Positions 2,979-35,649 are shown, counted from the stretch's first letter. The stretch: 64,000 nt of DNA from Vermamoeba vermiformis (GCA_045837725.1 JBEWZL010000278.1:62001-126000), one strand, 5' to 3'. Numbers and translations are program-made. Notes: generated by a model from the sequence alone, not told the origin.

Positions 2979-4673
2979 ATGATGAACGAATTGCAATTGT
3001 TAATAGCGTTTCTTGTTCTTGCGGTTGGTAAGGCATCATTTCTTTATTTTATTATTATCGGACCTCAAAATAATTATTTTAAACAGCAAGTTGTTCGTTG
3101 ATCGAGCAAGATCCAAATTTTGCGAATTTATTCGACACGGATTTTGTCAATTTTGGGACAATATATTCAACTGATTTTATTCGGAAAATTGCCAGCGAAA
3201 GAGGAGCCTCAAGACCTCCAATATTCGACAGTTTCAATGAGCCGAAGATCAGACAACAACTTCGCAACAACGTTCTTCTTCTCATTGATAAAATGCTCTC
3301 GATGCAACAAAACAACATGTCGTAAGTAATTTACTGCATAATTTAGCCACAAACGGCTTGCAATTTTTATTGACACGTGTCACTTGTTTTTTCAGATCCT
3401 GTGCAATTCAACGGCTCAGTGAAGCAAAAGCAATCAGAGATATCTATACAGATGATACGAAATTCAACAACCGGCCTCTGCCGCGATATTATCACGTGAC
3501 ACAACAGAAATGGGTTCCAGCAATCTTGGACTCGATGCTCATAAAGTGGGCCGACGCATTGTTTCCAGGAACATGGTTTGCAACAGGTAAAGCTCAACAA
3601 CAACAAGTGCCTAACGCAAACTTTATTGTAAAACATGTCATATTAGGATTCTACTCGATGCGGAGTCCGCAGAGCTATTCACCGGTTTTTTCGTTCGGCT
3701 CCGAGCTTGAACAACCTTTGAACGAGGTCAGCGATGACAGTCATTATATCTACAGCTATGGTCCTAACAATTATTACGGACTTGGTCGAATGCACAATGG
3801 TACATTGTGAACTTCGTATTGTAATTTGATAACTAGCTAAACATTATTTTTTCAGTGTCAATGTGGAAAAACAACACGGATCTGATCAGTTGGGGTGTCG
3901 AACAGAGATTTGTTGAGAATATAACCAGCTATATCAAATCGCGATACAATGAAGAAAAAGCATCGTTTTTGTTGTCAAAGATGACGAGCATCGATCAAAT
4001 TGTTCTTGAACGACAACTTTTGACCATCGCCCACGCGCACACCAACGATAGGGCCAATGCGTAAGCCTATTTTATTATACTATGATGTAAGTATTAACTT
4101 TATCACTAAAGGTTATTGGCTGGTTCTTTCATCGATTCAAGTTGGACCAAATTGAACATTTCCGTCGCGAACGTTTCTGTTGGACAGAGTACGTATTCTG
4201 CGTTGAGATACAAAGTTTTTGGAACTAACATCGTTTACAATGAAGTTATTATTCGTCCTTACGGGGGCAGCAACATGCAATACGAAATGATTGCTGCAGT
4301 GGACTACAACGGGCAGGAAATGACGTTTTTGAGTTTACATGTCGCGACACGCCAAACTACCGTTAGCACCGCGCCTATCTACGTGCTTGTCAACAAGTAC
4401 GTGCCAGACATGGAAATCAAAGACATGACAGTACTGACACAATTGATCGCTGATGGAGCTCTTCTCGATCAACCTCCACCATCGTACACCAAACTGAAAC
4501 GAAGTGTCAACCAGTTGATGACACGTGTCAAACATGTCACTCTCGAAGAACAACGACACAACGAGATACAATCCCAAAAATATCATCGAATGCTTTGCGA
4601 GTCACCTGAACACCATGCCAAAGCCATCGAGTACCTCCAGCAAAAGTTTGGTCTTCAACACTTGTCGTGTTAA
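2979..4673 (+). CDS. Array gene copy 1: secreted ~445-aa protein with putative ADP-ribosyltransferase-like domain; intact
   Basis: Exons 2979-3027, 3087-3321, 3396-3586, 3647-3799, 3856-4060, 4112-4188, 4246-4673 join in frame via GT-AG introns (1338 nt). Signal peptide MMNELQLLIAFLVLAVASCS. The same structure recurs in five paralogs. Confidence 0.85.
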
Positions 4674-4948
4674 GAGTTTACCACGAATAAATATGTGCCT
4701 CAGCGACAACAATTTTCGTTACCCTTGTTAACGGACGCCCCTTGTGAACAAATTTTAGGGGCGTTTATGTTTGTCGGGCCCTGGACTGAAAAACCGGCCC
4801 CAAATTTTGTCCCGTCCCCTCAAAAGTCACCTGGCACGATTTTATTTATTTGTAAGATCTTTCTATTGATACGCACACGGCTGTATAGTGTTGACGCTGC
4901 GCCAAATTATCCAATTCATATTAACCGTAGCGTCGGCGGGTTATTGTA

Positions 4949-6652
4949 ATGCAATTGACATTCATATTTATTTTTCTTGCAATTGGTAAGTTGTCGTTTT
5001 TTTAATTATCCTCACATTAATTTCTTTATTAATTTACTATCGGACCTCAAATTAATTTTATTTTAAACAGCAAGTTGTTCGCTGATCGAGCAAGATCCAA
5101 ATTTTGCGATTTTATTCAAAACAGATTTTGTCAATTCCGGAACAATCTATTCAACTGATTTTATTCGGAAAATTGTCAGCGAAAATGGAGCTTCAAGACC
5201 TCCAATATTCGACAGTTTCAATGAACCGAAGATCAGACAACAACTTCGCAACAACGTTCTTCTTCTCATTGATAAAATGCTCTCAATGCAACAAAACAAT
5301 ATGTCGTAAGTAATTTACTGCATAATTTAGCCACAAACGGCTTGCAAAATGATTTATTTGACACGTGTCACTTTGTAGATCCTGTTCAATTCAACGGCTC
5401 AGTGAAGCAAAGGCAATCAGAGATATCTATATAGATGATGCGAAATTCAATAGCAGGCCTCTGCCACGATATTATCACGTGACAAAACAGACATGGGTTC
5501 CAGCAATCTTGGACTCGATGCTCATAAAGTGGACCGACGCAGCATTTCCTGGCGCGTGGTTTGCAACAGGTAAATCACACCGAAATAGAATCGTTTAATT
5601 TAAAATCCTGTTTTCGTTAGGATTCTACTTGCAGCAAACAGCGAGGTACTATTCACCAGTTTTTTCTTTCGGCTCCGAGCTTGAACAACCTTTGAACGAG
5701 GTCAGCAATGACAGCCATTACATATCTTATTATGGTTCTCGTGATTATTACGGACTTGGTCGAATGCACGACAGTACGTAGTTATCTTCGTTCCATTACT
5801 AGCTAAAAATGACGTTCAGTATCAATGTGGAAAAATAACACGGATCTGATCAGTTGGGGTGTTGAACAGAGATTTGTTGAGAATATAACCAACTATATTA
5901 AGTCGCGATACGACGAAGAAAAAGCATCGTTTTTGTTGTCAAAGATGACGAGCATCGATCAAATTATTCTCGAACGACAACTTTTGACCATCGCTCATGC
6001 GCACACCAGCGATAGGGCCAACGCGTAAGCTTATTATATTATATATTTATATAGTATTAACTTACTTTCTTAGGGTATTGGTGGGTTCCTTCATCGATTC
6101 AAGTTGGAGCAAATTCAACATTTCTGCTGCGAATATGTCAGTCGGACAGAGTACGTATTGTTATAACTTTAAGAGGCTAAATTTAAACGGACTTGCCAAT
6201 CAATTCTATTTGCAGTTATTGTTAGCAGTGCCGGGTTACTGACAGACCTCTATTATGGCATGATTACTTCAGTGGACTACAACAAGAAGAAAATGTCATA
6301 CTTGACGCTGCATATCGCAACGCGTCAAACTGTTTTGAAGACTGAATCCTGGAGCTACTGTTTGATCTTCAATAAGTACGTGCCAGACATGGAGATCAAA
6401 GATATGACAGTACTGACACAATTGATCGCTGATGGAGCTCTTCTCGATCAACCTCCACCATCGTACAACAAACTGAAACGAAGTGTCAACCAGTTGATGA
6501 CACGTGTCAAACATATCACTCTCGAAGAGGAGCGACACAACGAGATACAATCCCAAAAATATCATCAAATGCTTTGCGAGTCACCTGAACACCATGCCAA
6601 AGCCATCGAGTATCTCCAGCAAAACTTTGGTCTCCGACACTTGTCGTGTTAA
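4949..6652 (+). CDS. Array gene copy 2; apparently intact
   Basis: Same 7-exon layout; signal exon MQLTFIFIFLAI; the checked junctions are in frame; ends HLSC-TAA. Confidence 0.85.
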
Positions 6653-6967
6653 AATGACAATAGTTTAGCGATAAATATGTGCCTCAGCGGAACGATTTTA
6701 GTTGGACGCTTTGTCCCTTGTATTGAGTGCCTAAAGTTGGCTTTTGATCGCCTTAGAAAGCGTGTGAACGGTTGAAAATTGTCGTCTTGTGAACAATTTT
6801 TGGCGTTTATGTTTGTCGGGACCCAAATTTAGTCCCGTCCCGTCCCCTCAAAAGTCACCTGGCACGATTTTATTTTATTTCGAAAGATCTTTCTATTGAT
6901 ACACACAGCTGTATAGCGTTGACACTACGCCAAATCATATGAACAATAGGTTCGGCAAGTTATTGTA

Positions 6968-8634
6968 ATGAAATTGACACTCATATTTATTTTTCTTGCA
7001 ATTGGTAAGTTGTCGTTTTTTTAATTATCCTCAAATTAATTGTTATTTTTTAAACAGCAAGTTGTTCGCTGATCGAGCAAGATCCAAATTTTGCGAATTT
7101 ATTCGACACAGATTTTGTCAATTCTGGAGCAAAGTATTCAACTGATTTTATTCGGAAAATTACGAGCGAAATTGGAGCTTCAAGACCTCCAATATTCGAC
7201 AATTTCAACGATCCAGAGATCAGACAACAACTTCGCAACAACGTAATTATTCTCATTGATAAAATGCTTTCAATGCAACAAAACAATATGTCGTAAGTAT
7301 TATACAGTGTAAATTAGCCACAAACGCTTGTAAAATAATTTTTATTTGACACTTTTTGTAGATCCTGTGCAATTCAACGCCTCAGTGAAGCAAAGGCAAT
7401 CAGAGATATCTATATAGATGATGCGAAATTCAATAGCAGGCCTCTGCCACGATATTATCACGTGACACAACAGAAATGGGTTCCAGCAATCTTGGACTCG
7501 ATGCTCATAAAGTGGGCCAACGCATTGTTTCCCGGAACATGGTTTGCAACAGGTAAAGCTCAACAACAACAAGTGCCTAAGGCAAACTTTATAGTAAAAC
7601 ATGTCCTATTAGGATTCTACGCGATCCTGAGTCCACAGAGCTATTCACCGGTTTTTTCGTTCGGCTCCGAGCTTGAACAACCGCTGACCGAGGTCAGCGA
7701 TGATAGCCACTATATCTATAGGTATGGTTTTCGTGATTATTACGGCCTTGGTCGAATGCACGACGGTACGTAGTTATCTTCGTATAATAATAACAAGTTA
7801 AAAATGATTTTCAGTGTCAATGTGGAAAAACAACACGGATCTGATCAGTTGGGGTGTTGAACAGAGATTTGTTGAGAATATAACCAGCTATATCAAATCA
7901 CAATATGACGAAGAAAAAGCGTCGTTTTTGTTGTCAAAGATGACGAGCATCGATCAAATTGTTCTCGAACGACAACTTTTGACCATCGCTCATGCGCACA
8001 CCAACGATAGGGCCAATGCGTAATAATATTATAATATGGTATATGTATGGTATTAACTTGCTTTCTTAGGGTATTGGTGGGTTCCTTCATTGATTCAAGT
8101 TGGACCGAATTGAACATTTCCACTGCGAATATTTCTGTTGGACAGAGTAAGTATTTATCAGAAGGTAAATTGTGACTTTCTAATCGATTCTATTCGCAGT
8201 TATTGTTCGCGGTACCGGGTTAATGACAGACCTCTATTATGGCATGAACTTCAGTGGACTACAACAAGAAGAAAATATCATTCTTGACGCTGCATCTTGC
8301 AACGCATCAAACTGTTTTGAAGACTGAACCCTGGCGCTACAATTTGATCTTCAACAAGTACGTGCCAGACATGGAGATCAAAGATATGACAGTACTGACA
8401 CAATTGATCGCTGATGGAGCTCTTCTCGATCAACCTCCACCATCGAACACCAAACTAAAACGAAGTGTCAACCAGTTGATGACACGTGTCAAACATGTCA
8501 CTCTCGAAGAACAGCAACACAATGAGATACAATCCCAAAAATATCATCGAATGCTTTGCGAGTCACCTGAACACCATGCCAAAGCCATCGAGTACCTCCA
8601 GCAAAACTTCGGTTTTCAACACTTGTCGTGTTAA
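6968..8634 (+). pseudogene. Array gene copy 3 with a 2-nt deletion in the last exon (pseudogene or assembly error)
   Basis: GGCATGAACTTCAGTG at 8241 versus GGCATGATTACTTCAGTG in copy 2; the shifted frame stops at 8325-8327. Confidence 0.7.
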
Positions 8635-9354
8635 AATGACAATAGTTTACCGCTAATAAATATTAGCCTTAGCGACAACGATTTTCTTCGTGACCCCTTG
8701 TTAACGGACGTCCCTTGTATATAATTATAAGCATTGTATAAGTCTCACTTTGCAACAACCCAACCCCCACAACCCCTTTTTGTTCATTTTTTTATAATTT
8801 AGGAGGCGCAGACGTGCGCGAGCGCAACATCCGCACTAACAAAAATTGTGACAGGGACAACACCATACGGTGAAGCCCAACCGATGTCGCACTCCGAGTG
8901 CAAGAGGAGCGCAACGACCGACCTAGAGATGCCTTCTTGATCACATCTCTACTGTCCAGGTAAGTATGAACTATCCAGGTGTTGTTTTTGCTTTTTTGTG
9001 CTTGATCCGGGATAAATATTTTGTGGGATTGGTTGCACGTTGCAAACAGGGGCTTAGAAAAGTACGGACGTACGATGACTATGCAAGAGAAGAAAATCTT
9101 TTTTTGCATGGCTAGATGATGCTAAGAAAAGTTACAACGTGCAAAGCGATCCCCGCTCAGGGGCCTACTTTTTTCTCGAATGCTAAGAAACAGCATAACG
9201 ACCAGGCAGGCTGTAGTTACTATTGCCAGATCGGCGTCGTTGAACGACTTTGTGCTGCGGCAGTCATGTAAATAAAGAAGAAAGGACCGTCGGAGATTCG
9301 GAGATAAATTTATTTATTTAGGGTTAGGGTTAGAAATTTGCTTTTTGGTTTCTT

Positions 9355-11751
9355 CTACTTTTTCGCGTTTCCCTTGGACCCTTTTGCTGCTTTTCTCTTC
9401 GCTCGTTGTTCTTTCACACGTGCCTTGCGTTCAGCTTCTTTGTCTAATATGACTTGTCGTCTGCGTTGGCGCAACACATTCGGTCTGTTGTACGCTGCCG
9501 GAGCATCTCCGTCAAAGAAATCTCCCTCATGATATTTATCAAATTTAACTACTACGCCGTAAAAGACTTCAGAGGCATGATCATTAGCAACAAATTTTCC
9601 GTAGGAACTCTTCAGTTTCGGATCTGTCAAAAAAAGTTAGCTTACTCGATCACGTGATCTTCTTCCAAATAAGGCAATAATGGCTTAACGTACCTTTAGG
9701 TTGTTTATAAGTCACTATTTTCTCCGCGGTAATCGTTGCAACGGCCATACAATTCTCACCTAAAATAGCCTAATTAGGATACTGTCTGACATTACCGAAT
9801 GAAAGTCACGCGATAATTATTCCGCTGTAGCCTATCGATCGCAAAAAAAATATTCACTTTACTTACCAGGATAGACTTGATCCACAAAATTGACTTTTCC
9901 TTCCTTGATCTCGAATAATAGGTGAATATGAATATACCTCTTTAATCCTAATATGTAAATCTCGTTCTCGAAATGATTTCGCAAGGTATTTTGTAAGACA
10001 GCAATTGACACCAAACAATTTCCTGGACGAGATCCGACACTCGGATAATAAGTCAGAGAACTGGAACTGTCCATGGTGTAATAAACAGGGTCATTTGGCT
10101 TGAGTGGGTGCACCCATGGCATGTACGGCATAATCGGACATTTAATGTGCGAAACCGGGCTTTCTTGGACTCCCGCTGGAAAAAATGAAAAAATCGTTAA
10201 TTTTTACCAACAAAGCACCAAAGTGGACTATTACAAAGATCAAGCGAAAAAAATTGCAAATTTCAATTTAGTGAGCTAGCTTGCGCTATTAAATGTGGTA
10301 AATTTTCATAAATGATCGAGTTGTGATCTAGTTCGATCCGCGTCTGTATGTTAAAGAGTCCTAGTTACCAGGACAAATTTTTCAGAACTACTACGTACCG
10401 ACAGTCATGCACAACTGCGTGACTCGTTCTTCGTAGCGAAGGTAATCAGGTTTCGCGAGTGCTTGGCGCAGTGTGAGTGGTGGCAAGAACTGATTTGATT
10501 GGCCAATCAACTCTTTCAGTGTCGGACCTTTGTACCATTCGACCATCTATTGTCCGCAATAACGCGTTAGTGAAACACGCTGAAAATAGCCGTTCAGTGA
10601 AACAGCAAACTGTCGAAAATATTGTTGGCGGTTACGAAATTTGATGCAAAAGTTTAGCTTCATGCACGAATTTTCAACGAGGTTGATCGTTGTCATTACT
10701 ATATTTGGCAATGAGCACGTGGCAACGGTCAAAAAGTCATTTGTAAGTTAATTTTGGGGGCAAGTCCGAGTTACTTTGAAACGCATATTTTTCCCCTTAG
10801 CAAATGTCTTACTGTCCAAAAAAGGTTATACTTGCCTTATTAGTCTTTGGCGAGTATTTTTTAGGCAGTGGAATGGTCTTGAAGTGCTGGAAGTTGCGGC
10901 CCAAGACAATTTGCGCGACGTTTTCAATGTCTGCTTTGAACCGCTCGTACGCTAAAAAAGGAGCATTAGATCCGAATTTCCAAATAAGGAAAAACATTTC
11001 AAATCAAATAATAGTCAACGAAATGATATTTCAAATGAATTTTTACCTTTTTTGTCCGCTTCGTTGTTATTCACTTCCGTGTAACAAGCAATAATATTAG
11101 GACTGCCCATCGCAATGTAAGCATTCGTGATCACTCGCTGCCAGTCCCAATTCGAAAAATATGGAGGATTTGGCATGGTGCTCGGCGAAGTATATGTATC
11201 AGATCGTACCATGATTAACGTGCAGGAAGCCTACGAAAAAATGGATTCGGGATTAGCTGATCTGAATGTTTTCGCAGAAGACAAAACGGTTGATCGTACG
11301 AAGCATAATTTTGAAAGCTCTTTGATAGTGCCATGTCCCACAAGGACATCCAATAAAAGCATTTCTGAATCTGCAAAATGAAATCCGTTACAAAAAATAA
11401 TCATGATTTTTAATAATTAAATAATTATTTATTTGGTGCTCGCTGGACTCAAAATACGAAGAATTTCCAACAAATTGAGCTCGAAATTAATTAATTACCT
11501 GTTAATGTTCCTGAATTTAAGAATGCATCTCCATATCTGTGCACTCTGCCAACGATAAAATGATTTCGTTTAGCACTTAGTAGTGCTAAATATATGTGTT
11601 CAAAGCCTTTACAGCTGCGCAAGCAATTTAAAATTGCGCTAACGCTCAAGTAGGGAAAGATCTCCACCCAAAGCTCGATTGGAAGGATACTCCGCGCTAG
11701 ATTGGCCAGCGATTTTTCTTTACTGTCTAATTCTAGCGTGTTGTGCTCCAT
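9355..11751 (-). CDS. F-box protein fused to a degenerate eEF1A/EF-Tu-like (pseudo-GTPase) body, ~471 aa, 8 exons
   Basis: Exons 11751-11499, 11370-11300, 11230-11047, 10951-10836, 10546-10399, 10175-9867, 9759-9694, 9623-9355 are phase-compatible (1416 nt). F-box ILPIELWVEIFPYL; eEF1A-like segments MVEWYKGPTL and YGKFVANDHASEVFYGVVVKFDK; Lys-rich tail. Confidence 0.75.
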
Positions 11752-11880
11752 TAATTTCGAAATTCAAACTGAAAAAAGACTTCTCAAAACGGAATTCCGT
11801 ACAGATAACGAGTTTGGGAATCGAACAAAGCAAGACGAAGGCAATGGATTACATTATACTACTATTTACTATACATTAAT

Positions 11881-14292
11881 TTAGAATTTAACGCCGTGAC
11901 GACCGAAGAACAAGTCCATCTGTTTTTTAACGAACTTGGCGCCTTCGTGCTCAGTCTTGATGTGGTCTGGAATGCCTGGCAAACCATTCAAATTAGCCGC
12001 TAGAGTAGCGAAGCCTTTTTGGAGGTCATTCATATCTTGCTTATGCTCCATAGCGATCATCTAACAAAAAAGAAAATTGATCAGATCCTGATCCCTGTTC
12101 AATAGTGCTGATGTGGGATCATATAGTTATATATGTATATTACCTCGATAGGCTTGATGTTAACAGGGTCGGGTAACATTGTAGGGCAATCAGTTCGCGG
12201 TGTGTCGCGTTCGAGTACGATCTGCTCAAATGTAGCGGCATACTTGTCACTATAGAGCAATCCAATAAGACTATGAACACTATATAAACTTCATACATAT
12301 CGATACTTACCGCTGAGTCAAGTAGTTTGGCAAGTTGAACATCTTACGAACGGTAGCGTAAACGGATGTGTGATCGAAATAACTTGATTCAGGCTCGTGA
12401 ATTAAAGTGCCCTATTTGAGCAATGTTAATTAGTATCGTTACTATATACTTTCCTTATTTAATCATTAAATTTGGTCGAAGAGTTAAGGAGATCTAGGTT
12501 CCGTAACTAGTTACCTTGTTGATCCACGGTGAAATCATTAAAGTGGGAACACGAACGCCTAATCTATCGAAGTTGAATGCAGGGTCGCTAGAATTAAGGC
12601 CGTCAGGATTAGGCACGTTCATTGGTGGCGGAACATGATCGTAGAATCCACCATGCTCGTCAAAAGTAATTATCAAAAGCGTTTGATTCCATTGTGGTGA
12701 GTTTCTAACGGCATTGTAGACTTGCTTAATCAATAATTCGCCTATAATCAACGACAAAAAGTTTAGCTAAGTCAGATCTTGGCCGGTACAAAAATAATCG
12801 AATCCGGATTCCGCTTACCTTGAGAAACGTCATGCGATGGGTGCTGATCATTAGCAGGATAATAAGGAATAGAATAATATCGTGGCTCGATAAATGAAAA
12901 TTGCGGCAAAGTACCAGCTGCAGCGTCGCTTTCAAATTGCGTCAAAATGCCGTAATTATGTAACAGATAAGTCGGGGAACGAAGTCTCCTCAAGAATCTA
13001 TATGACATAGTTAATATGTGCCATACTATATTATTGACTACGTACACAGCTGAAGGAAACATCTCAAAGTAGATCTTCCATGAAACGCCTTGATCGTAGA
13101 ACTCGTCAAAGTACGTGCGTTGAGGCAAGCCCTCAGCCATAGTAATAGGGTCATTGTTGCCGACACCGTGAGAAGTACCAGATAACAAATAGAATCTGTT
13201 GACCTCAGTAGGGCCTAGAATAGTCGTTAGAACATGACGGATCCACGAGATCTATTTTTAGCTATGAAAATCTTTCTATTGCAATTTGCTAATTATAGTT
13301 ATAAAGCTACATATTGCATTATAGCTAATATGATTATATTAAACCGCCTTAATTTAATTAAATAATAATATCAATTTCAAAAGACTGATCTCCGCGGAGG
13401 TCCACGGTTCACATTGAGTTATGATCCATCTTATATATATCGATATAGTAAATATGACGTATCCTTACCTGGCACTGAACTGTACCATCGATCAAATAGC
13501 GCAAACTCCTTGGCTAACGTAGCCGTTACTGAAATACTCGAATTTGAAAATGATTGCATGATAGTAGCGCCCCATCCCTAATTTTTTACGTGTTATTTAC
13601 ATGAACATAATAAATACGCGTTGAATTTCATTAAAAGAAGGTTAAGCATGATTTAGAAGCCAAGATCTAATTTAATCGAAAAGTCGTCAAGTCCAAAACT
13701 GAGTTATGCGTTGTCTTAAAAATATGATTACCTGTCCATTTTCTTCTGCACTAGCAACGAATCCGGACATATTCGGAGCATCTTTAGGGCCAGGGTTATG
13801 AGTTCCAAAAATTTGTAAAGTTGCATCTGCGTTGCAAAATGAAAATTAGGCTTTCAAAAATATGCATAATATTCTATATATGCCATCATAATATAATATA
13901 ATCGTAAAAAGGGCTTGCAAACGATTTCACATTTAGAACTTAGTTAATAAATCACGCGACTAGATTTTAAAATTACAAATAAGCTTTCTATAGCGCTAAA
14001 AATTACCTGTAATTTGATGACCTGGATTATTAGTCACGAATGAAGACTTATTGCTGACATAGACTCGTTTGGAGTTGGGATCTTGAGGATTGTAAAGGTT
14101 ATATTCGTTGCCTGTAAGTCCATCGATATCGGAGTTTAGTGTTTGTTTTAAATAACCACAATAGTGATCAAAACTTCTATTTTCAAGCATAAGCACTACA
14201 ACGTTTTTGATCGGGGTTTGGAATTTTGGAGCACCAAGTACATCCGCTGAAAACAGCAAGACGATGATGCCGATAATAGCAACAGATCGCAT
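11881..14292 (-). CDS. Secreted phosphoesterase, non-specific phospholipase C (NPC/PlcN) family
   Basis: Signal peptide; [40 protein letters not shown] and [16 protein letters not shown] motifs across several exons. Confidence 0.92.
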
Positions 14293-14407
14293 ATTACCCA
14301 CGCAAATGCAAATAAAGGTTGTGTGGTGGATCTGATCCAAAATTAGTTAAAAATAAAAACTTTTACGGCAAATCATTTTATCCGAACTTCTGTGAACATC
14401 AACACAA

Positions 14408-15393
14408 ATGAAATATCTATCATATTCTTTATTTATCCTGTCTATCACTCTTAGCGTACTGGCCCAAGCTCCTGTGCCCAATAACATTGACCTGGATCAA
14501 CGATGCTGTTTCCAGTTCAACGATCCGCAGCTCCCTAGCTTTATTTTGCCCGCTCCGCAATTGAATTCGCCTGGAGACATCCAATTGAACGTAAACAACT
14601 CGATTACTTTGTATAATGGCCATGCCATCAGCCAAGGTAAAACTAATTTCGAACCGATGGTTTTGATCCGGCTTTTTTTCGAATCTTTTTAAAATTGCCG
14701 CCGTTCAATACCATCAATAGAGTAAAATTTTCCATAAAATACTCAAATACGCATAAATAATTGATTTGATTCGTGTTTCGAGGAGATTTCTTTTGATCTA
14801 CGCAGATCCGCTTTAATTCACCCGCACCGCAATCTTTGACATAATTACCTTCTAATTTCGTACATGCTTTTAAAATAAGCTGATATGACCTTATTTAACA
14901 GGTTGCAATGGTGACCGCACCTTTTACAAGGTGAACGGAACTTGGGTCGAGACGTACGTGGATGCCAATGGCGAAAACCGAACTGGAATTGACTTGTTTT
15001 ATGCTACCGGTAATATTATACTCCCTACAATCACATATTTACCCTTTCAGACCTTGATCTAACCTTACCGAATCCTAGCTACGGATCATTTGAACTTCAG
15101 AACCATTCAAACTTGGCAAAGAAATATTGCGGAAGTATTAAATGATCGACTCATCGCGGTTATAATAACTTGCAACAATGGCGTGACTTCGTGTCTCAAA
15201 TTCACCGTCAACGGTACTATTGTGGACGATTTGGCTGGCGATGCGCCAGGTTACTGCGGTAAATAATATCATATTAATGTATATTAGCTTCATAGAGTAT
15301 TAATTGTATATTTTTTAAGGCGGAGCGGGCTCGTTGTTCTCTTCGATCAGCATTGTTATCTTGATCTGCTCGGCTTTGCTTACTTTGTTCTGA
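14408..15393 (+). CDS. Secreted, probably GPI-anchored Cys-containing surface protein of unknown function
   Basis: N-terminal signal peptide MKYLSYSLFILSITLSVLA; 4 exons; C-terminal small residues plus hydrophobic tail GGAGSLFSSISIVILICSALLTLF. Confidence 0.7.
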
Positions 15394-15634
15394 AGCACCA
15401 ATCAACCTTATTTATTATGACACAAGCATTTAATACTAAAGAATATCCTTCTTACAACTCTATGGGCTGATTCGCTTGGCTTAAAGATTCGGATCGAGCA
15501 CTAAATGGCTTCATGAAGCTCACGTTTAATACTCATATTTTGTGATAATGGCAAGATAACGTGACCCAAACTTAGCAAACTTGGCGATACCTACGATTGA
15601 TGATTTAATTTCATTTATGTTATTTGACAAAAGC

Positions 15635-17508
15635 TCAACACGACAAATGTTGAAGACCAAAGTTTTGCTGGAGGTACTCGATGGCTTTGGCATGGTGTTC
15701 AGGTGACTCACAAAGCATTCGATGATATTTTTGGGATTGCATCTCATTGTGTCGCTGTTCTTCGAGAGTGACATGTTTGACACGTGTCATCAACTGGTTG
15801 ACACTTCGTTTCAGTTTGGTGTTCGATGGTGGAGGTTGATCGAGAAGAGCTCCATCAGCGATCAATTGTGTCAGTACTGTCATGTCTTTGATTTCCATGT
15901 CTGGCACGTACTTGTTGAAGATTATCAAACTGCTCCTTAAGGATGCAGTATTCAAAACAGTTTGACGTGTTGCGATATGCAGGGTCAAGAATGATATTTT
16001 CTCCTTGATTGAGTCCACTGAAGTAATCATGCCATAATACATGTCTGGTGTAAACCCGGCACCACCGCTAACAATAACTGCGAATAGAATCGATTAGAAA
16101 GTCACAATTTCGCTTCTTATAACCATACGTACTCTGTCCGACTGAAATATTCGCAGCAGATTTGTGCGATTTGGTCCAACTTGAATCGATGAAAGAACCA
16201 GCCAATAACCTTTAGAAAGTAAATTAGTACTTATATTCAGTAATCTGTTGCTTACGCGTTGGCCCTATCGTTGGTGTGTGCATGAGCGATGGTCAAAAGT
16301 TGTCGTTCAAGAACAATTTGATCGATGCTCGTCATCTTTGACAACAAAAACGATGCTTTTTCTTCGTCATATCGCGACTTGATGTAATTGGTTATATTCT
16401 TGACAAATTCTTGCTCGACACCCCAACTGATCAGATCCGTGTTGTTTTTCCACATTGATACTGAAAATCATTTTTAGCCTGTTATCAAATTATTATACGA
16501 AGATAACTACATACTGTCGTGCATTCGACCAAGTCCGTAATAATCACGAAAGCCATAATAAGCGATGTAATGGCTTTCATTGCTGACCTCATTCAGAGGT
16601 TGTTCAAGCTCGGAGCCGAAAGAAAATACTGGCGAATAGCTTTTTGCTTTGAACTGCAAGTAGAATCCTAACGAAAACAGGATTTTAAATTAACCGATTC
16701 TATTTTGGTGTGATTTACCTGTTGCAAACCATGCGCCAGGAAACAATGCGTCGGTCCACTTTATGAGCATCGAGTCCAAGATTGCTGGAACCCATGTCCG
16801 GTTTGTCACGTGATAATATCGTGGCAGAGGCCGGCCGTTGAATTTCGCATCATCAATATAGATATCTCTGATTGCCTTTGCTTCACTGAGGCGTTGATTT
16901 GCACAGGATCTGACAAAAAGTAACACGTCAAATAAAATTGGATTTGAACGCGTTTGTGGCTAAATTACGCAGTAAATTACTTACGACATATTGTTTTGCT
17001 GCATCGAGAGCATTTTATCAATGAGAAGAAGAACGTTGTTGCGAAGTTGTTGTCTGATCTTCGGCTCATTGAAACTATCGAATATTGGAGGTCTTGAAGC
17101 TCCGCTTTCGCTGGCAATTTTCCGAATAAAATCAGTTGAATAGATTGTTCCAGAATCGACGAAATCCGTGTCGAATAAATTAGCAAAATTTGGATCTTGC
17201 TCGATCAGCGAACAACTTGCTGTTTAAAATAAAATTAATTTGAGGTCCTATAATAATAAAATAAAATTACAATAATTATATTATTAACCAAATAATTGTT
17301 AAGTTAACTACGACAAATTTTGCAAATTTATTGGCAAGCATAGGAATAACAGCTTGCCTGAATGGCGAATGAAGGAGCGTACGGTCGCATGAAAAAATTA
17401 GTAAATTTAATTTACGTTGAGCATTAAAACTGAAATCGAGAATAATGTGAGGATAATTAAAAACAACTTACCAATTGCAAGAAAAATAAATATGAATGTC
17501 AATCGCAT
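15635..17508 (-). CDS. Array gene copy 4; apparently intact, with enlarged intron 1
   Basis: Signal exon MRLTFIFIFLAI at 17508; the checked exons are in frame; ends HLSC-TGA. Confidence 0.85.
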
Positions 17509-17618
17509 TACAATAACTTGCCAACGCTACAGTTAATATAATTTGACGCAGCGTCAACACTCTAGAGCCGTGTGCATATTAATAAAAAGAACTTTCGTCG
17601 AATTCAATTAACTTTTCA

Positions 17619-17792
17619 GCGAAAGTTCCTACGAAATTGTAGCAACTTGTACCAAAAATAGAATTTTTTTTAATGGCAGTATTTTGAGCTGGCGACTTCC
17701 GTGGCAGCGTCCGTTGCATTGGTATTACCGCAAGCCGTTGGCGCGAACTCCACAGCTCTTCGTCGAAGCTCGCACGGAAGTTCCTGCCGCAG
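17619..17792. repeat. Conserved non-coding element upstream of copy 4, repeated at ~19929-20113 and ~22033-22142
   Basis: Shared GAAAGTTCCTA...CTTGTACCAAAA...GAGCTGGC..GGTATTAC..GCAAGCCG block upstream of all three minus-strand copies. Confidence 0.8.
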
Positions 17793-18145
17793 TTTGAAAC
17801 AGCAAAAACTCCTCCGTTTAATTGTTTCCGCTGCGAGAAATGCGAGAAAGCTCAGCGGAACAAGTCGAGTAATAGAGTACTTTAAAAAAAATTTAATTTT
17901 TAATCGTGCCAGCGGATTTTTGACCTAATTTGTTCCGGACCAAATTTGAGAACAGGTTATGTTTATCGGACTGAAAAATCGGACGTCCAATTAGGCTAGG
18001 ATAGCCTACATAGACTACGATGTATTATGGCAGATTCTGTTTGATCGTTGGCTTCTATTGCGGATCTGGAAATTGCGGGCATCGAAGTTTAACGGTAAGT
18101 AGACCCGCTGCTGAGGCACATTTTTATCGTTAAACTTTCGTAAAT

Positions 18146-19801
18146 TTAACACAACAACTGTCGAAGACCGAAGTTTTGCTGGAGATACTCGATGGCTTTG
18201 GCATGGTGTTCAGGTGACTCACAAAGCATTCGATGATATTTTTGGGACATGTTTGACACGTGTCATCAACTGATTGACACTTCGATTCAGTTTGGTGTTC
18301 GATGGTGGAGGTTGATCGAGAAGAGCTCCATCAGCGATCAATTGTGTCAGTACTGTCATATCTTTGATCTCCATGTCTGGCACGTACTTGTCGAAGATAA
18401 AATTGTAGCTCCAGGGTTCAGTCTTCAAAACAGTTTGACGCGTTGCAAGATGCAGCGTCATGAATGATATTTCCTGTTGCTTGTTGTCCACGGAAGTAAT
18501 CATGCCATAATAGAGGTCTGACATAAACTTGGCACCTCCAACAATAACTGCGAATAGAATCGATTGGCAACTCGCACTTTAACTTTCGCTTATAAGTTAT
18601 AACAATACGTACTCTGTCCGATTGACATATTCGAGTAGAAATGTTGAATTCACTCCAATTTGAATCGATGAAGGAACCCACCAATACCCTAGTAAAGTAA
18701 GTTAATACTCTATTTATATCATTTTATAATATTATTACGCGTTGGCCCTATCGTTGGTGTGTGCATGAGCGATGGTCAAAAGTTGTCGTTCAAGAACAAT
18801 TTGATCGATGCTCGTCATCTTTGACAACAAAAACGATGCTTTTTCTTCGTCATATCGCAACTTAATGTAGTTGGTGATATCCTTGACAAAGTCTTGCTGG
18901 ACACCCCAACTGATCAGATCCGTGTTGTTTTTCCACATCGATACTGAACATCATTTTTAGCTAATTATCTAATTATTATACGAGTTCACAACGTACCATT
19001 GTGCACTCGACCAAGTCCGAAGTGAGTACGAGGACCATAGTAAGTGGCGTAATGGCTGTCATTGCTGACCTCGGTCAGCGGTTGTTCAAGCTCGGAGCCG
19101 AACGAAAAAACCGGTGAATAGCTCTGTGGACTCAGGATCGCGTAGAATCCTAATAGGAAATGTTTTACTATAAAGTTTGCGTTAGGCACTTGTTGTTGTT
19201 GAGCTTTACCTGTTGCAAACCATGCGCCAGGAAACAATGCGTCGGACCACTTTATGAGCATCGAGTCCAAGATTGCTGGAACCCATTTCTGTTTCGTCAC
19301 GTGATAATATCGTGGCAGAGACCGTGCTGTTGAATTTCGCATCATCGATGTAGATATCTCTGATTGCCTTTGCTTCACTGAGGCGTTGAATTGCACAGGA
19401 TCTGCTCGTGTAAAAAAAAATTGCTTCGCAAGTGGTTTGTGGCTAAATTACGCAGTAAAGTACTTACGACATATTGTTTTGTTGCATCGAGAGCATTTTA
19501 TCAATGAGAAGAAGAACGTTGTTGCGAAGTTGTTGTCTGATCTTCGGCTCATTGAAACTGTCGAATATTGGAGGTCTTGAAGCTCCATTTTCGCTGGCAA
19601 TTTTCCGAATAAAATCAGTTGAATAGATTGTCCCAGAATTGACGAAATCTGTGTCGAATAAATTCGCAAAATTTGGATCTTGCTCGATCAACGAACAACT
19701 TGCTGTTTAAAATAATTATTTTGAGGTCCGATAATAATAAAATAAAGAAATGATTACTTACCAACCGCAAGAAACACAATTATCAATTTCAATTCGTTCA
19801 T
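18146..19801 (-). pseudogene. Array gene copy 5; pseudogene with three frame-disrupting lesions
   Basis: +1 insertion near 19324 (exon 3), 1-nt deletion near 18632 (exon 6) and a 35-nt deletion near 18247 removing TLEEQRHNEMQ relative to copy 4. Confidence 0.85.
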
Positions 19802-20198
19802 AATTTTAAGGTAAAGTGCTGCTTTCGTAGATCTAGTAACAAACAAGATCGTAGGTAAAAAAGAAAGTTTCGTACGAAACTGAGGCTAAGCGTTCTATGA
19901 TAAAATAAAAAATTTTACTATTCAGCGCGCGAAAGTTCCTATGAAGTTGTAGCAGCTTGTACCAAAATATAGAATTTTTTTTGATGGCAGTATTTTGAGC
20001 TGGCGACTTCCGTGGCAGTGTCCGTTGCATTGGTATTACTGCAAGCCGTTGACGCGAACTCCGCACGACGTCGAAGCTCGCACGGAAGTTTCCTACGAAA
20101 GTTCCTGCTGCAGCGGATCTGGAAATCGGGGTTTCGTGGGCATCGATTTTTTAACGGTTAGTGGACCCACTGAGGCACATTTTTATCGTTTTTTAAAT

Positions 20199-21890
20199 TC
20201 AACACGACAAGTGTTGAAAACCAAACTTTTGCTGGAGGTACTCGATGGTTTTGGCATGGTGTTCAGGTGACTCGCAAAGCATTCGATGATATTTTTGGGA
20301 TTGCATCTCGTTGTGTCGCTGTTCTTCGAGAGTGACATGTTTGACACGTGTCATCAACTGGTTGACACTTCGTTTCAGTTTGGTGTACGATGGTGGAGGT
20401 TGATCGAGAAGAGCTCCATCAGCGATCAATTGTGTCAGTACTGTCATATCTTTGATTTCCATGTCTGGCACGTACTTGTTGACGAACACGTATCTCAAGC
20501 TAATCAGTGTGGTGCGAACGGTAGTTTGACGCGTTGCGACGTGTAATCTCATAATCGTCATTTCCTGCCGCTTGTAGTCCACTGCAGCAATCATTTCGTA
20601 TGGCATGTAGGTCAGCGCGGAAGCGCGCAAGAGGACTAATTACATAGTAAATAAGCCAGATGCAAAAAACCTATTTCAAGACGTACTCTGTCCAACAGAA
20701 ATGTTCGCGACGGAAATGTTCAATTTGGTCCAACTTGAATCGATGAACGAACCCACCAATAACCTTTTAGTGATAAAGTTGATAATTACATCATAGTATA
20801 ATATAATAAGCTTACGCGTTGGCCCTATCGTTGGTGTGCGCATGAGCGATGGTCAAAAGTTGTCGTTCAAGAACAATTTGGTCAATGCTCGTCATCTTTG
20901 ACAACAAAAACGATGCTTTTTCTTCATTGTATCGCGATTTGATATAGCTGGTTATATTCTCAACAAATCTCTGTTCGACACCCCAACTGATCAGATCCGT
21001 GTTGTTTTTCCACATTGACACTGAAAAAATTATGTTTAGCTAGTTATCAAATTACAATACGAAGTTCACAATGTACCATTGTGCATTCGACCAAGTCCGA
21101 AGTGACTACGAGGACCATACAGCGAGGTATAATGGCTGTCATTGCTGACCTCGGTCAGCGGTTGTTCAAGCTCGGAGCCGAACGAAAAAACTGGCGAATA
21201 GCTCTGTGGACTCCGTATTAAGTAGAATCCTATATGCCACCTGTCAATAAAGCTAGTATTAATTATTTTTGTGCCGTACCAGTTGCAAACCACGCGCCAG
21301 GAAATGCTGCGTTGGGCCCACTTTATGAGCATCGAGTCCAAGATTGCTGGAACCCATTTCTGTTGTGTCACGTGATAATATCGCGGCAGAGACCGTCTGT
21401 TGAATTGCGCATCATCTGTATAGATATCTCTGATTGCCTTTGCTTCACTGAGCCGTTGAATTGCACAGGATCTACGAAAAGTGACACGTCAAATAAAATT
21501 GTCAATAAAAATTGCTTCGCAAGTGGTTTGTGGCTAAGTTACGTTGTAAAATACTTACGATATATTGTTTTGTTGATTTGATAGCATTTTATCAATGAGA
21601 AGAAGAACGTTGTTGCGAAGTTGTTGTCTGATCTTCGGCTCATTGAAACTGTCGAATATTGGAGGTCTTGAAGCTCCATTTTCGCTGGCAATTTTCCGAA
21701 TAAAATCAGTTGAATAGATTGTTCCAGAATTGACAAAATCTGTGTCGAATAAATTCGCAAAATTTGGATCTTGCTCGATCAACGAACAACTTGCTGTTTA
21801 AAATAATTATTTTGGTCCGATAATAATAAAATAAAGAAATGATGACTTACCAACCGCAAGAAACGCTATTATCAATTTCAATTCGTTCAT
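20199..21890 (-). CDS. Array gene copy 6; one +1 C in exon 3 (homopolymer error, pseudogene, or rescued by intron retention)
   Basis: Signal exon MNELKLIIAFLAV; TGGGCCCAACGC near 21316 versus TGGGCCAACGC in copy 3; the other checked exons are intact. Confidence 0.7.
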
Positions 21891-22478
21891 CGATTTTAAC
21901 GTAAAGGCTCGCTGGTTGTTACTTTCGGAGATCTTGTTTAAAACAAGATCGTGTGTATAAACAGAAAGATCTGCGAAATAAAATAAAAAAAACCAATTGA
22001 TTTTGTTTTGTACGAAACCGTTCTTTTCAACTGCGAAAGTTCCTACGAAGTTGCAAGCAACTTGTACCAAAAATAGAATTTTGAGCTGGCACTTCCGTTG
22101 CTGTGGTATTACTGCAAGCCGCTGGCGCTAACTCCGCAGCTCTTAATCTCCCGAAAAGCGAAATTCACATATCGGTTCACATGCGTACCGTCCACTATCT
22201 ATTTCAAATCTTACGACACTGTTTATATTGCAGAGCCTTGACGGGGAGAGGAATCATGGTGTTTTGAGACCACCGTATTTGGTGGCAACCAAAATTCGTT
22301 TTAACTTTCTAAATAATGCCTTCGCATCGAACATCGCACGTAGTATGTTACTTAGTTGGCCTTTTCAAGACTTACAATCCTGGCTTGCTTGAGGTCCAAC
22401 CGAGGCCATCAGAAAACAAAATTTGATCCATACTTTTTTCAACGCGCTTTCCATCGTTTTTATGTACATTCAATATGA

Positions 22479-25361
22479 TTATTGTGGCACGTTAGCAGCA
22501 GGGTATCCGTTTGGATAGTAAGGGTATTGTTGGGTGGGTACCATGTGGGGTGGGTAGTTCGGATGCGGTTGACCTGGCTGTGGGTAACCTTGCATGTACG
22601 GATTGCTATTGTAAGGCATCGGTTGGCCATATACATTAGGTGGCATGCCGTAGTAGCCTTGCGGCGGGTAATAACCTTGGTGTGGTTGTGGCACGAAATT
22701 TCCGTATTGTTGCTGGACTGTCACGTGTTGCGGTGGGTACATCGGCTGTTGAGGAGGATAAGCTGCCATATGGCCTGGTGTAAACGGCTGTGCTTGGACA
22801 AGGTTGGCGTTTAGCTTTGCCGATTGAGGTCCGAACGTGATTGGCTGCATTGGCGAGGGAGCTGAAGTCGTGCCATTGGCTTGCTTCGACACGCCGCTGA
22901 TCGTCTTGACAGGTGTCGGCTCGAGTTCAATTTTAGCGCTGTTATTAACCTTCTCGGGGACTACTTGAGACACGGGTTGGACGACAGGTTGGGCTACTTG
23001 AGGCTGAGCAGATTGTTGCACGCCGTTCGGCTGCGCAGTACTAGCAGGCTTTTGTTGTGTGGCAGCACTGCCATTCTCCGGCAATTGTTGTTCACCAATC
23101 GCTTGAACAGGCTTGGCAACAGCACCAGTAGTCGTTTGAGCTGCCTTAGCTGTGCTATTCGGCTGAGCGACTTGAGAAGTCTGTTGCTGTTCCACAGGCT
23201 TCTCTGTGTTATTTTGAGTAGGCTGGGCAGTTGTGTTCGGTGTAGGGCTTTGAACGGCCTGTTGTTTCTCTTTGAACTTTTGTAAACCGACCCAAACAGG
23301 TGGAGGCGCCATCGGCTTCTTAGGCTGGGCTGTTTCAACGGGTTTTTCTTCCTTCTCTTGCTGTTTCGATGCTGAAGGCTGCTTAGGCTTCTCTTGTTGA
23401 CTATTTTGATGGCCTTGCGTGCCCTTCTTGGGGGCAGCTTTGGGAGCACCAGATTGTTTGGGCTGTGCCTTTGGTGCTTCTTTAGCTGGCGCGGGCGTTG
23501 CGGTCTCGGCAGGTTTGACTGGCTCGACTGGTTTAGCCTTGGCCATCGCTAAAATCTGCGCGTAAGACATCTTCGTCATGCCCTTGCTTTGAGTCAAAGG
23601 ATTGGCTTGTTGGTCACTTGTACTAGTCTCAGTCTTTGTAACTTCGGGCTTAACTTCAGGTGTACTCTCTGGCGTTTGAGTATCTTGCTGTACTTCGTTT
23701 GTAGCATCATTTTCGGTGACCTCGTTAGCAAGCTCGGGATTTTCGGCGATTTCTTCGCCTTCCTTGGGAGGCTCGACTTTGGGCTTCGGAGGCTCCGAGA
23801 ACTTTTGTGCCCAATTGACTGGCTTGCCCCACACACTTGGTGGCGGTGCAACTTCGTCACGTGGCTTTGGTGATGTTCGGACAGGCTAAATTTAGAAAGG
23901 TTAGGGTCAGTTTTCGTCAAAAGCGAGTGATGACTTTTGCAGAATTTTTCTAGTCATGCAGAAAATAAATAAACTAAATATTATTATTAACATACTGCAG
24001 GTGCCGGCTGTCGGTTAGCTCTGTTATCGTTACGTCGTTTTTTCTTCGACTTGACGTCCTGAAATCCCGGTGACTCGGGATCGCACGCGTTAACATTTTC
24101 TTCATTCAACATGTACGCCATTTGTCTATCTTCCTCCTCCATATCTAAACAACAATATTATTACTATATAATGATAATAGTATAATATCGAATTGGTACG
24201 TACTTGCAAGTTCATGCAGCCACAAATCATAGCCAACATTTTGGTACGCGAATTCTTTCTCGTTTTTAGGCTCGTTCAATACTTCAGCCACTAAATCGAC
24301 CACAAGTTCTATTTAAAATAGCATTAGGACTATATTAAAAGAAAATAATATCGATATTGCCTTACCTTGACAAAAGATTAAATAATCCATTTGTTTCTTA
24401 GTATATACAAGGTCGTAATGGTTGCCGTACGAGTAGCATAATTTAATTTGGTTCTTAAATCCGTTGTCTATCGGCGGAATTTCACCGTTGGAATGGATCT
24501 CGAAGTTTACTCTGAAAAAAAAATTAGAAATTTTGTAACGCGTTGGATCTCGCCAGTAAATCATACTTATACAAAAGCGATAACGCCTGAAGCTCTATTT
24601 GACCGCCCCAACAGATGTCCTAATAAAGAAATTAGTATTCGTTCGAGGTAAGTTTTTCGGATGTGGATCTGGTCTTACCAAACTCATAGCATGAAGATAA
24701 TCGTCGAATGTCTGGCCATCAGGCAATGCAACGAAATCTTGAAAGTCTTGGCGGTTTTGACGCAAGTATTCAACGCACTCTAAGCGCACTTTTCGGTGCA
24801 TGACTTGAGTTGCGTAAATGGATTCAGCAATGGCGCGAAACTAAAAGCAAATAATTATAAGCATTAATATTTGTGGCTTATTAAATATAATAGCACGAAT
24901 ATACGAGGGATTAGATTCAAATGCTACCCCAAAATGAAAAGACAATTTGCGATCGCGAACAGAAAATTGTTAGTCAATTCTTTAATTACAAATACAACCA
25001 TAAAATAATGTATTTGCTTATATTAAAGCATCTCAAGTCTTGCAATTAATTATAAGAATTATTCAGTATTAATTTCCGGCCTCATCCATTTTTTATATTC
25101 TTCAGTATTTTTAAATATTCAATAAAAGCTTACCAAACAAGCACCATCCTTAGGCATTTGTTTTCTAACCAATCCTAACGAGTCTAACTTCGCATCCAAA
25201 ATCAAGATCTCGTCGTCTTCATTTTGTTTTGCTGCGGGCTGGCCCGCTGAAGGTATAGAAACATTATTAGGCTCTATAACTGTTTCTATTGTGAATTCAG
25301 AGTTAGTTTGGCCAATAGGCTTTTTGTTGGCTCGCTTCTGCGGTTGCTTTCTTCGACTCAT
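22479..25361 (-). CDS. OTU-family deubiquitinase with long Q/P/Y-rich low-complexity C-terminus
   Basis: Catalytic motifs MPKDGACLFRAIA and LCYSYGNHYDLV across exons; final 451-aa ORF rich in P/Q/Y. Confidence 0.88.

Positions 25362-34258: not shown

Positions 34259-35649
<1,391 letters not shown>

What the first reader, a model, noticed from the sequence alone, without database searches (positions are those of the whole stretch)
2979..21890. Six-copy convergent array of a secreted, hypervariable, putatively ART-like protein: candidate polymorphic effector or defence locus
Seen: three + strand and three - strand copies of a 7-exon gene with a signal peptide, a near-invariant scaffold and localised variable loops. 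They bracket ~7 kb holding an F-box/eEF1A-like gene, a secreted phospholipase C and a GPI protein. Three copies are intact and three are disrupted, a birth-and-death pattern. I do not recognise the family. Inference: a diversifying secreted toxin or recognition system used against prey, pathogens or competitors. A functional link to the enclosed genes is speculative.
Basis: partly seen in the sequence, partly recalled or inferred. Interest (0 to 1): 0.9.

Follow-up and report, generated by a model that had tools for sequence, protein, structure and literature searches.

The report
Six-copy array of unnamed secreted protein
A microbial eukaryote carries six neighbouring copies of a gene for a secreted protein that resembles nothing known, but the copies look like an ordinary duplicated gene family kept similar by copying between copies, not a hypervariable toxin or defence system.

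Summary
The six copies are real: three on + and three on -, convergent around about 7 kb. Each has seven exons with GT..AG introns. Copies c1, c2 and c4 are intact (445, 444 and 446 aa); c3, c5 and c6 carry frameshifts. Spliced contigs in two public runs reproduce three predicted introns. Transcript-sized relatives of 33-65% identity are colinear with the model.

No ADP-ribosyltransferase, or any other named family, was found by Pfam, PADLOC, NCBIfam, PDB sequences, the Atlas or fold searches. Pairwise dN/dS is 0.28-0.46 and no 30-codon window exceeds 0.68. The variable stretches also have high synonymous divergence. Mosaic identity and a permutation test (0 of 1000) indicate gene conversion. 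Two of the frameshift sites read in frame in another data set.

Best reading: a lineage-restricted, undescribed family of N-glycosylated secretory-pathway proteins, possibly enzymes, expanded by tandem and inverted duplication. The family is rare: 8 short fragments among 1.84 billion representatives. Interest is moderate to low.

The parts
2979..4673 (+). Copy c1, intact, 7 exons, 445 aa
   Evidence: Colinear with P0002, P0005 and P0036 at 58-65% identity.
4949..6652 (+). Copy c2, intact, 7 exons, 444 aa
   Evidence: Introns 3 and 4 (5570-5620 and 5774-5819) are seen as GT..AG joints in contigs of runs X7 and X8.
6968..8634 (+). Copy c3, one 2-nt deletion at 8247/8248, otherwise open
   Evidence: Intron 6 (8147-8199) is seen as a joint in X7 and X8. 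The X7 contig has TT at the deletion site (tables 4 and 5).
15635..17508 (-). Copy c4, intact, 446 aa; exon 1 at 17508-17472 followed by an unusually long 252-nt intron 1
   Evidence: An X8 contig lies on 15667-15918 (table 8).
18146..19801 (-). Copy c5, pseudogene-like: 1-nt insertion at 19325, 1-nt deletion near 18634, 35-nt deletion at 18248
   Evidence: An X7 contig lacks the extra base at 19325 (table 4).
20199..21890 (-). Copy c6, 1-nt insertion at 21316 (GGGCCC against GGGCC); opens only through an alternative acceptor at 21240, scrambling about 15 residues including the invariant GAW
8807..8967 (-). U1 snRNA gene inside the enclosed segment (a neighbour, not part of the family)
   Evidence: Rfam RF00003, 78.4 bits against a gathering score of 69.5, E 1e-17.
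9860..11763 (-). Enclosed gene with a borderline F-box-like motif (11494-11763); spliced in X8
   Evidence: PF12937, 24.4 bits against a cutoff of 24.3. Joints 10175>10399 and 10546>10836 in X8. No EF1A-type hit.
12497..14346 (-). Enclosed phosphoesterase / phospholipase C-type gene (PF04185) with a signal-peptide-like start
   Evidence: At least six CT..AC joints in X8, depth about 20-26.
14408..15393 (+). Enclosed 196-aa protein with a signal peptide and a C-terminal hydrophobic tail (GPI-anchor-like)
   Evidence: Model built from X8 joints and checked.

Best explanation
The locus is a genuine and fairly old expansion (pairwise dS 0.18-0.34) of a lineage-restricted, so far unnamed gene family. 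A gene unit of about 2 kb was duplicated in tandem and as an inverted block, giving 3 + 3 convergent copies.

Each copy encodes a protein of about 445 aa with these features:
- a cleavable-looking signal peptide
- 5-9 N-glycosylation sequons
- no other membrane segment and no invariant cysteine
- an N-terminal domain of about 265 residues with no recognisable fold
- a small C-terminal beta-barrel followed by a helical, charged tail

Shown here:
- The copies are under overall purifying selection.
- They are homogenised piecewise by gene conversion.
- Some copies have recently acquired small frameshifts. Only c5 has several lesions.

Inferred (about 40% likely within this reading): the product is a soluble enzyme of the secretory or endolysosomal pathway. 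About 80 positions are invariant between members only 33% identical. Many of them are polar, for example Y124-H125, E177, E182, S187-H188, R203, H205, K211, D215, E258, R272, N274, D361, D366 and D376 in P0002 numbering. The multiple copies would then serve dosage or mild sub-functionalisation rather than a recognition repertoire.
For: Array and models.

Independent support for the exon model:
- Joints at 5567/5569>5619/5621, 5773>5820 and 8146>8200 (all GT..AG) appear in contigs of X7 and X8, which are 2 runs from 2 studies.
- Full-length relatives are colinear over 385-438 aligned residues at 33-65% identity.
- 15 of the 33 listed cluster members are 408-445 aa long. 14 of those 15 lie on contigs of 1334-2591 nt, so they are uninterrupted coding sequences.
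- P0003, from a 541-kb contig, reads through introns at the positions of introns 5 and 6.

Restricted family:
- 6 of 12 candidates matched and 6 of 3591.
- 8 short fragments matched among 1,835,955,588 representatives.
- Every name given is 'hypothetical protein' or absent.

Secretory features.

Purifying selection: omega is 0.28-0.46 in 6 of 6 pairs. The highest of 27 windows with a defined ratio is 0.68. pS is 0.4-0.6 in the variable zones against 0-0.15 in the conserved ones.

Gene conversion:
- The nearest partner changes by segment. In intron 3, c1/c3/c5 are 95-97% alike and c2/c4 96%, but the two groups are only 56-58% alike. In introns 4-5 and exons 5-6, c1/c6 are 92-98% alike.
- 43.7% of pairs among 179 informative sites fail the four-gamete test.
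- Neighbour incompatibility is 0.335 against 0.437 +/- 0.008 in permutations, with 0 of 1000 permutations as low.

Invariant polar residues.
Against: - Function is not shown. No family, fold or motif ties the protein to any activity.
- The models are only moderately confident (pLDDT 62.7 and 67.8). The most motif-rich stretch, P0002 residues 149-212, is below pLDDT 50.
- With three or four sequences and saturating pS in the variable zone, positive selection at single sites cannot be excluded. In-frame length changes of 3, 6 and 9 nt cluster there.
- Two RNA runs carrying the species' own label gave only 28 and 23 reads over the 19-kb stretch. 28 of 28 and 22 of 23 lay only partly on it. So these copies are silent there, or those runs come from a diverged strain.
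- The runs X7 and X8 are only guessed to be RNA, although GT..AG joints argue for cDNA.
- Relatives' genomic loci could not be fetched, so the arrangement in other strains is unknown.
Confidence: 0.7

Rival explanations
1. One reading: a diversifying secreted toxin or recognition repertoire (polymorphic effector or defence locus), whose variable patches are selected to differ between copies.
For: - The protein is secreted-type and multi-copy, and variation is concentrated in two zones, c1 residues about 151-210 and about 286-360.
- In-frame indels of 3, 6 and 9 nt occur in exon 7.
- The highest window ratios, 0.56-0.68, include the second variable zone (0.56-0.63 at c1 residues 301-345).
- Part of the variable sequence coincides with low-confidence, loop-like model segments.
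- The state of the frameshift sites differs between strains or data sets.
Against: - No window has dN/dS above 0.68, and overall it is 0.28-0.46.
- Synonymous divergence rises in step with non-synonymous divergence, as expected from blocks that escaped gene conversion.
- No toxin, defence or immunity family was found in Pfam, PADLOC or NCBIfam.
- The spacers between + strand copies are only 275 and 315 nt, which leaves little room for partner genes (coordinates).
Confidence: 0.12
2. A non-enzymatic extracellular glycoprotein, such as a cell coat, cyst wall or adhesion component, needed in bulk and hence multi-copy.
For: - It has a signal peptide and 5-9 sequons, with no catalytic motif or fold recognised.
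- It lies next to a GPI-like protein gene.
Against: - It has no repeats, no low-complexity or Cys-rich modules, and no anchor.
- The very dense set of invariant polar residues at 33% identity is more typical of an active site than of a structural protein. This point is an inference.
Confidence: 0.15
3. An ADP-ribosyltransferase-like enzyme, as in the reader's title.
For: - An invariant His (YYH.T) and an invariant Glu (LE.P) lie in the N-domain.
- One Atlas row at rank 29, score 0.79, belonged to a cluster in which 38% of members carry PARP.
- The relevant segment is poorly modelled, so fold evidence is not decisive.
Against: - No ART or PARP family appeared at E <= 1-10 for 4 window pieces and 5 relatives.
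- A profile of the family against PDB sequences gave 0 matches at E <= 10.
- The Atlas score is in the range that shuffled sequences reach a third of the time, and it did not recur with P0007.
- The first Glu of the 'ELE' motif is not conserved and there is no invariant S-T-S.
Confidence: 0.03
4. An assembly artefact: uncollapsed haplotypes or a fold-back chimera create the extra copies.
For:
- Three single small indels look like possible sequencing errors, for example GGGCCC at 21316.
- Two lesion sites read differently in X7.
Against: - The copies differ by 2-25% in exons and up to more than 50% in introns, in a mosaic pattern. Haplotypes or a fold-back would be near-identical and would include the flanks.
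- Only the 2-kb gene units repeat.
- Contigs from other data sets lie on distinct copies: c2, c3, c4 and c5 (table 8).
Confidence: 0.03

Closest known systems
Lineage-specific secreted paralogue arrays that evolve by birth-and-death with gene conversion (a general phenomenon in eukaryote genomes; recalled, not from a call)
   Same: Tandem and inverted paralogues, segment-wise mosaic identity, a mix of intact and frameshifted copies, and signal peptides.
   Different: The protein itself belongs to no described family. No phenotype or expression condition is known. Selection here is purifying, unlike the classical diversifying examples.
ADP-ribosyltransferase toxins and ecto-ARTs
   Same: Secreted proteins with a signal peptide. 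An invariant His and an invariant Glu exist in the N-domain.
   Different: There is no profile match, no ART among the fold-search rows, no conserved ExE or STS, and the modelled N-domain is largely helical.
Small SH3-like beta-barrels (Gemin6/7, KOW of NusG/Spt5, Tudor, MazF/Kid)
Polymorphic toxin / effector systems with a conserved scaffold and variable modules
   Same: Multi-copy, secreted, with conserved and variable stretches.
   Different: There is no recognisable toxin module and no dN/dS above 1. The variable stretches are internal and homologous between copies rather than swapped C-terminal cassettes.

Membership tests
ADP-ribosyltransferase superfamily | Significant match to an ART, PARP or toxin-ART sequence profile | tested here: not met
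   Pfam hmmscan of 4 window pieces (E <= 1), P0002 and P0005 (E <= 1), and P0007, P0008 and P0036 (E <= 10) listed no ART-type family. The family profile against PDB sequences gave 0 matches at E <= 10.
ADP-ribosyltransferase superfamily | ART fold (split beta-sheet NAD-binding core) | tested here: inconclusive
ADP-ribosyltransferase superfamily | Conserved R ... S-T-S ... [QE]xE motif order (motif definition recalled) | tested here: not met
   In alignment A4 the only ExE-like site reads SELE, SVLE or SDLE, so only the second Glu is invariant. There is no invariant S-T-S.
ADP-ribosyltransferase superfamily | H-Y-E triad with typical spacing (recalled) | tested here: inconclusive
   H125 and E177 are invariant, but the intervening aromatic residue (GFY) is W in P0008. 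The Y-to-E spacing of about 19 residues is far shorter than in the PARP and diphtheria-toxin type as I recall it.
ADP-ribosyltransferase superfamily | NAD+ binding and ADP-ribosyl transfer | not testable with these tools
   Needs a biochemical assay.
Diversifying (polymorphic) effector or recognition repertoire | Excess of non-synonymous change (dN/dS above 1) in the variable module | tested here: not met
   Six of 6 pairs have omega 0.28-0.46. Of 28 windows of 30 codons, 27 have a defined ratio and the highest is 0.68. Only 3-4 sequences were available, so single sites were not tested.
Diversifying (polymorphic) effector or recognition repertoire | Recognisable toxin or defence domain | tested here: not met
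   Pfam, PADLOC and NCBIfam gave nothing above cutoff.
Diversifying (polymorphic) effector or recognition repertoire | Cognate partner or immunity gene beside each copy | tested here: inconclusive
   The + strand spacers are 275 and 315 nt (coordinates). No separate gene was modelled there, and small ORFs were not examined for conservation.
Birth-and-death multigene family with gene conversion (a process, not a protein family) | Clustered paralogues of graded divergence, some inactivated | tested here: met
   Caveat: the lesion sites at 8247 and 19325 read in frame in an X7 contig.
Birth-and-death multigene family with gene conversion (a process, not a protein family) | Mosaic relationships or recombination between copies | tested here: met
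   Identity was computed segment by segment. 43.7% of site pairs are incompatible, and 0 of 1000 permutations reached the observed neighbour compatibility.
SH3-like small beta-barrel (C-terminal domain) | Five-stranded barrel that superposes on known members well above chance | tested here: inconclusive
PF04185 phosphoesterase (the neighbouring gene, not the family) | Profile match above the gathering score | tested here: met
   Scores of 87.7, 40.0 and 98.3 bits against a cutoff of 23 for three exon pieces.

The most novel reading that the evidence does not exclude
The family founds an undescribed secreted enzyme or toxin fold confined to one protist lineage. Its two variable zones would be kept different between paralogues, protected from gene conversion by selection, so that the array supplies a small repertoire of specificities against prey, competitors or viruses.
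Probability: 0.12. Interest if true: 0.65.

Novelty: new member of a known kind. Interest (0 to 1): 0.3.

Why it matters
If the best reading holds, this is one more lineage-restricted secreted gene family in a protist genome. It is useful for annotation because the family is currently unnamed and absent from Pfam. It is also a clean small example of gene conversion producing a false 'scaffold plus hypervariable loops' appearance. It would matter more if the N-terminal domain turned out to be a new catalytic fold. The dense set of invariant polar residues makes that directly testable by expression, mutagenesis and a structure.

Tried and rejected
- **Whole genome:** none is held for this window.
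- **Earlier scan notes:** none by place or by sequence.
- **Word-based search with exon 7, longer proteins:** 74 candidates, none significant.
- **Metagenome contig scans:** the first attempt failed because the alignment had too many partial rows. Repeats with alignment A4 (140 pattern matches) and with P0003 (59 pattern matches) confirmed none. Relatives' genomic loci and synteny could therefore not be examined.
- **Viral links:** viral contigs gave 70 pattern matches, none confirmed. The viral fold library gave 0 matches at E <= 0.001.
- **PDB sequences:** best E 0.43-0.65 for window pieces, and nothing for the family profile.
- **Atlas:** the top score was 0.81 for P0002, including a PARP-containing cluster at rank 29 with score 0.79. 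There was no usable hit for P0007. Both are below meaningful levels.
- **Sub-threshold Pfam rows dismissed:** ThiI_fer, DUF7366, partial_CstF (20.5 bits against 27), RolB_RolC (19.3 against 23) and DUF6216.
- **Sequencing runs:** no RNA holder was listed in the index.
- **Literature:** one search on an organism name that I only guessed returned nothing relevant (listing seen only). I name no organism. I have no family name to search by, so I make no claim that the family is absent from print.
- **Other:** Complex prediction was not used. My first hand-typed exon coordinates were off by 1-8 nt and were corrected by script.


Full report
**Observation**

The window is eukaryotic-looking DNA of about 40% G+C. 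The repeat finder on 1-30000 returned 20 direct-repeat families, 13 with three copies and 7 with two. Spacing is about 1980 nt in 3000-8700 and about 2080-2490 nt in 15600-21900. It also returned 62 inverted pairs, and the 25 longest shown are 87-98% complementary. So there are three direct units on each arm, and the arms are inverted relative to each other.

Projecting that model through a genomic alignment and testing nearby splice sites gave these results:
- c2 is intact at 444 aa.
- c3 and c5 have no open model.
- c6 opens only through an alternative acceptor.
- c4 at first seemed to lack exon 1. A proper signal-peptide exon lies at 17508-17472 behind a 252-nt intron, giving 446 aa.

tblastn of c1 found 17 HSPs, all inside the two arms. 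A self-BLAST showed that nothing beyond the 2-kb gene units is shared between the arms.

**Lesions**

- c3 has a single 2-nt deletion at 8247/8248.
- c5 has a 1-nt insertion at 19325, a 1-nt deletion near 18634 and a 35-nt deletion at 18248.
- c6 has a 1-nt insertion at 21316 in a GGGCC run.

Three intact and three disrupted is therefore correct for this assembly. In the read lay, only three indels separated the contigs of X7 and X8 from the window. Two of them sit exactly on lesions: 'TT put in behind 8247' and '19325 left out 1', both in X7 (table 4). Those two lesions are thus strain-specific or sequencing errors. Only c5 is convincingly decayed.

**Expression and model support**

- Contigs of X7 and X8 come from two studies under other organism labels and are 95-99% alike to the window. 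They carry GT..AG joints at 5567>5619 (equally 5569>5621), 5773>5820 and 8146>8200. These are my introns 3 and 4 of c2 and intron 6 of c3 (table 5).
- X8 also shows the enclosed phosphoesterase gene spliced at depth about 20-26.
- The two RNA runs carrying the species' own label gave only 28 and 23 laid reads, and 28 and 22 of those lay only partly on the stretch. Their loose ends spell an exon 4-exon 5 junction with unlike flanks, so they come from a diverged paralogue or strain (tables 1 and 7). That is no evidence that the window's copies are expressed in those runs. The neighbouring genes were equally bare, so silence and strain divergence cannot be told apart.

**Relatives**

- Exon 7 found nothing by words among longer proteins.
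- Exon 5 found 6 of 12 candidates, and P0002 found 6 of 3591.
- The exhaustive phmmer run with the exon 6-intron 6-exon 7 open frame found 8 proteins of 61-120 aa among 1,835,955,588 representatives.
- Cluster look-up listed 33 members in 8 clusters. All are 'hypothetical protein' or unnamed.
- 15 of the 33 are 408-445 aa, and 14 of these lie on contigs of 1334-2591 nt. They are uninterrupted coding sequences, so either cDNA-derived or intronless.
- The spliced window proteins are colinear with them: 58-65% identity to P0002, P0005 and P0036, 45-47% to P0007, and 33-35% to P0008.
- P0003, called on a 541-kb contig, contains read-through insertions exactly at introns 5 and 6. At least one relative therefore shares those introns.

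**What the protein is**

- Pfam gave nothing above cutoff for 4 window pieces and 5 relatives.
- PADLOC and NCBIfam gave nothing.
- PDB sequences gave nothing, including 0 matches at E <= 10 for the family profile.
- The Atlas gave scores of 0.81 or less for P0002 and no usable hit for P0007.
- AlphaFold2 on P0002 with a 25-row family alignment gave mean pLDDT 62.7 and pTM 0.60. Helices 66-116, the 214-267 segment and a five-strand sheet at 303-358 are confident. Residues 149-212 and 276-296 are poor.
- Foldseek against the PDB gave 0 matches at E <= 0.001.
- The viral structure library gave nothing at E <= 0.001.

Sequence features are a single N-terminal hydrophobic segment, 5-9 N-x-S/T sequons, and no other hydrophobic span. 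No cysteine is invariant. About 80 positions are invariant across seven sequences from four to five clusters. They include many polar residues, while the first Glu of the 'SELE' site varies.

**Evolution of the copies**

- Identity by segment shows shifting partnerships. In intron 3, c1/c3/c5 (95-97%) stand against c2/c4 (96%), with 56-58% between the groups. In introns 4-5 and exons 5-6, c1/c6 are 92-98% alike. In intron 6, c3/c4 are 91% alike.
- Among 179 biallelic informative sites, 43.7% of pairs fail the four-gamete test. Neighbouring sites are more compatible (0.335) than in any of 1000 permutations (0.437 +/- 0.008). The dominant split changes along the gene.
- Nei-Gojobori estimates give dS 0.18-0.34 and dN/dS 0.28-0.46 for six pairs among c1, c2, c4 and c6.
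- In 28 windows of 30 codons over c1, c2 and c4, no defined ratio exceeds 0.68. The variable zones have pS 0.35-0.59, while the 'invariant' blocks have pS 0-0.2.
- The contrast between scaffold and loops is therefore largely a contrast between recently converted and unconverted DNA, under purifying selection throughout.
- In-frame indels of 3, 6 and 9 nt cluster in exon 7. Together with the small sample, they leave room for site-level positive selection that I could not test.

**Surroundings**

The 7 kb between the arms holds:
- a U1 snRNA gene at 8807-8967 on the - strand
- a gene with a borderline F-box-like motif
- a PF04185 phosphoesterase gene
- a 196-aa protein with a signal peptide and a C-terminal hydrophobic tail

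Nothing supports an eEF1A-like domain. Nothing links these genes functionally to the family.

**Verdict**

The interpretation as an ART-like, hypervariable effector or defence array is not supported. The best reading is an undescribed, narrowly distributed family of secretory-pathway glycoproteins. It was amplified by tandem and inverted duplication, is maintained by purifying selection, is homogenised in patches by gene conversion, and shows recent decay of some copies. Function is inferred only: probably an enzyme, from the density of invariant polar residues. The family is new as a protein family, but the genomic phenomenon is ordinary.

Noticed in passing
window 8807-8967 (-): A complete U1 spliceosomal snRNA gene (RF00003, 78.4 bits, model positions 1-166 of 166) lies just downstream of copy c3, inside the segment bracketed by the two arms.
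   Followed up: no
window 17220-17471 (-): Intron 1 of copy c4 is 252 nt, against about 53-85 nt in the other copies. The old exon-1 position is degenerate. This insertion accounts for part of the longer c4-c5 spacing of 2483 nt, against about 2080 nt.
   Followed up: partly
window 3861-3904, 18912-18941 and 20972-21015: A few reads of the own-label RNA runs X19 and X21 match only about 43 nt at the start of exon 5. They continue into unlike sequence that reads as an exon 4-exon 5 junction of another family member. A diverged paralogue or strain variant is therefore transcribed there (table 7).
   Followed up: no
window 15400: The X8 contig has 5 extra bases (TGGTG) just after the stop codon of the GPI-like gene. 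This is the only indel between the window and the laid contigs that is not at a family frameshift site (table 4).
   Followed up: no
window 22479-23885 (-) and 51950-55661 (-): Long open frames rich in P, Q, T, S and K coincide with the G+C-rich stretches (0.48-0.52). The second continues into ORFs at 55636-56585 that read like a myosin motor. That reading is by eye only and was not scanned.
   Followed up: no
window 34259-35428 (-): ORFs with DTGSS and DTGTS motifs look like a pepsin-type aspartic protease with a signal peptide. This was recognised by eye only and not scanned.
   Followed up: no
window 42619-43146 (-): An ORF contains an internal tandem repeat of the VKDKTVE.A type. A self-BLAST hit joins 42778-42903 and 42916-43041 at 75% identity.
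   Followed up: no
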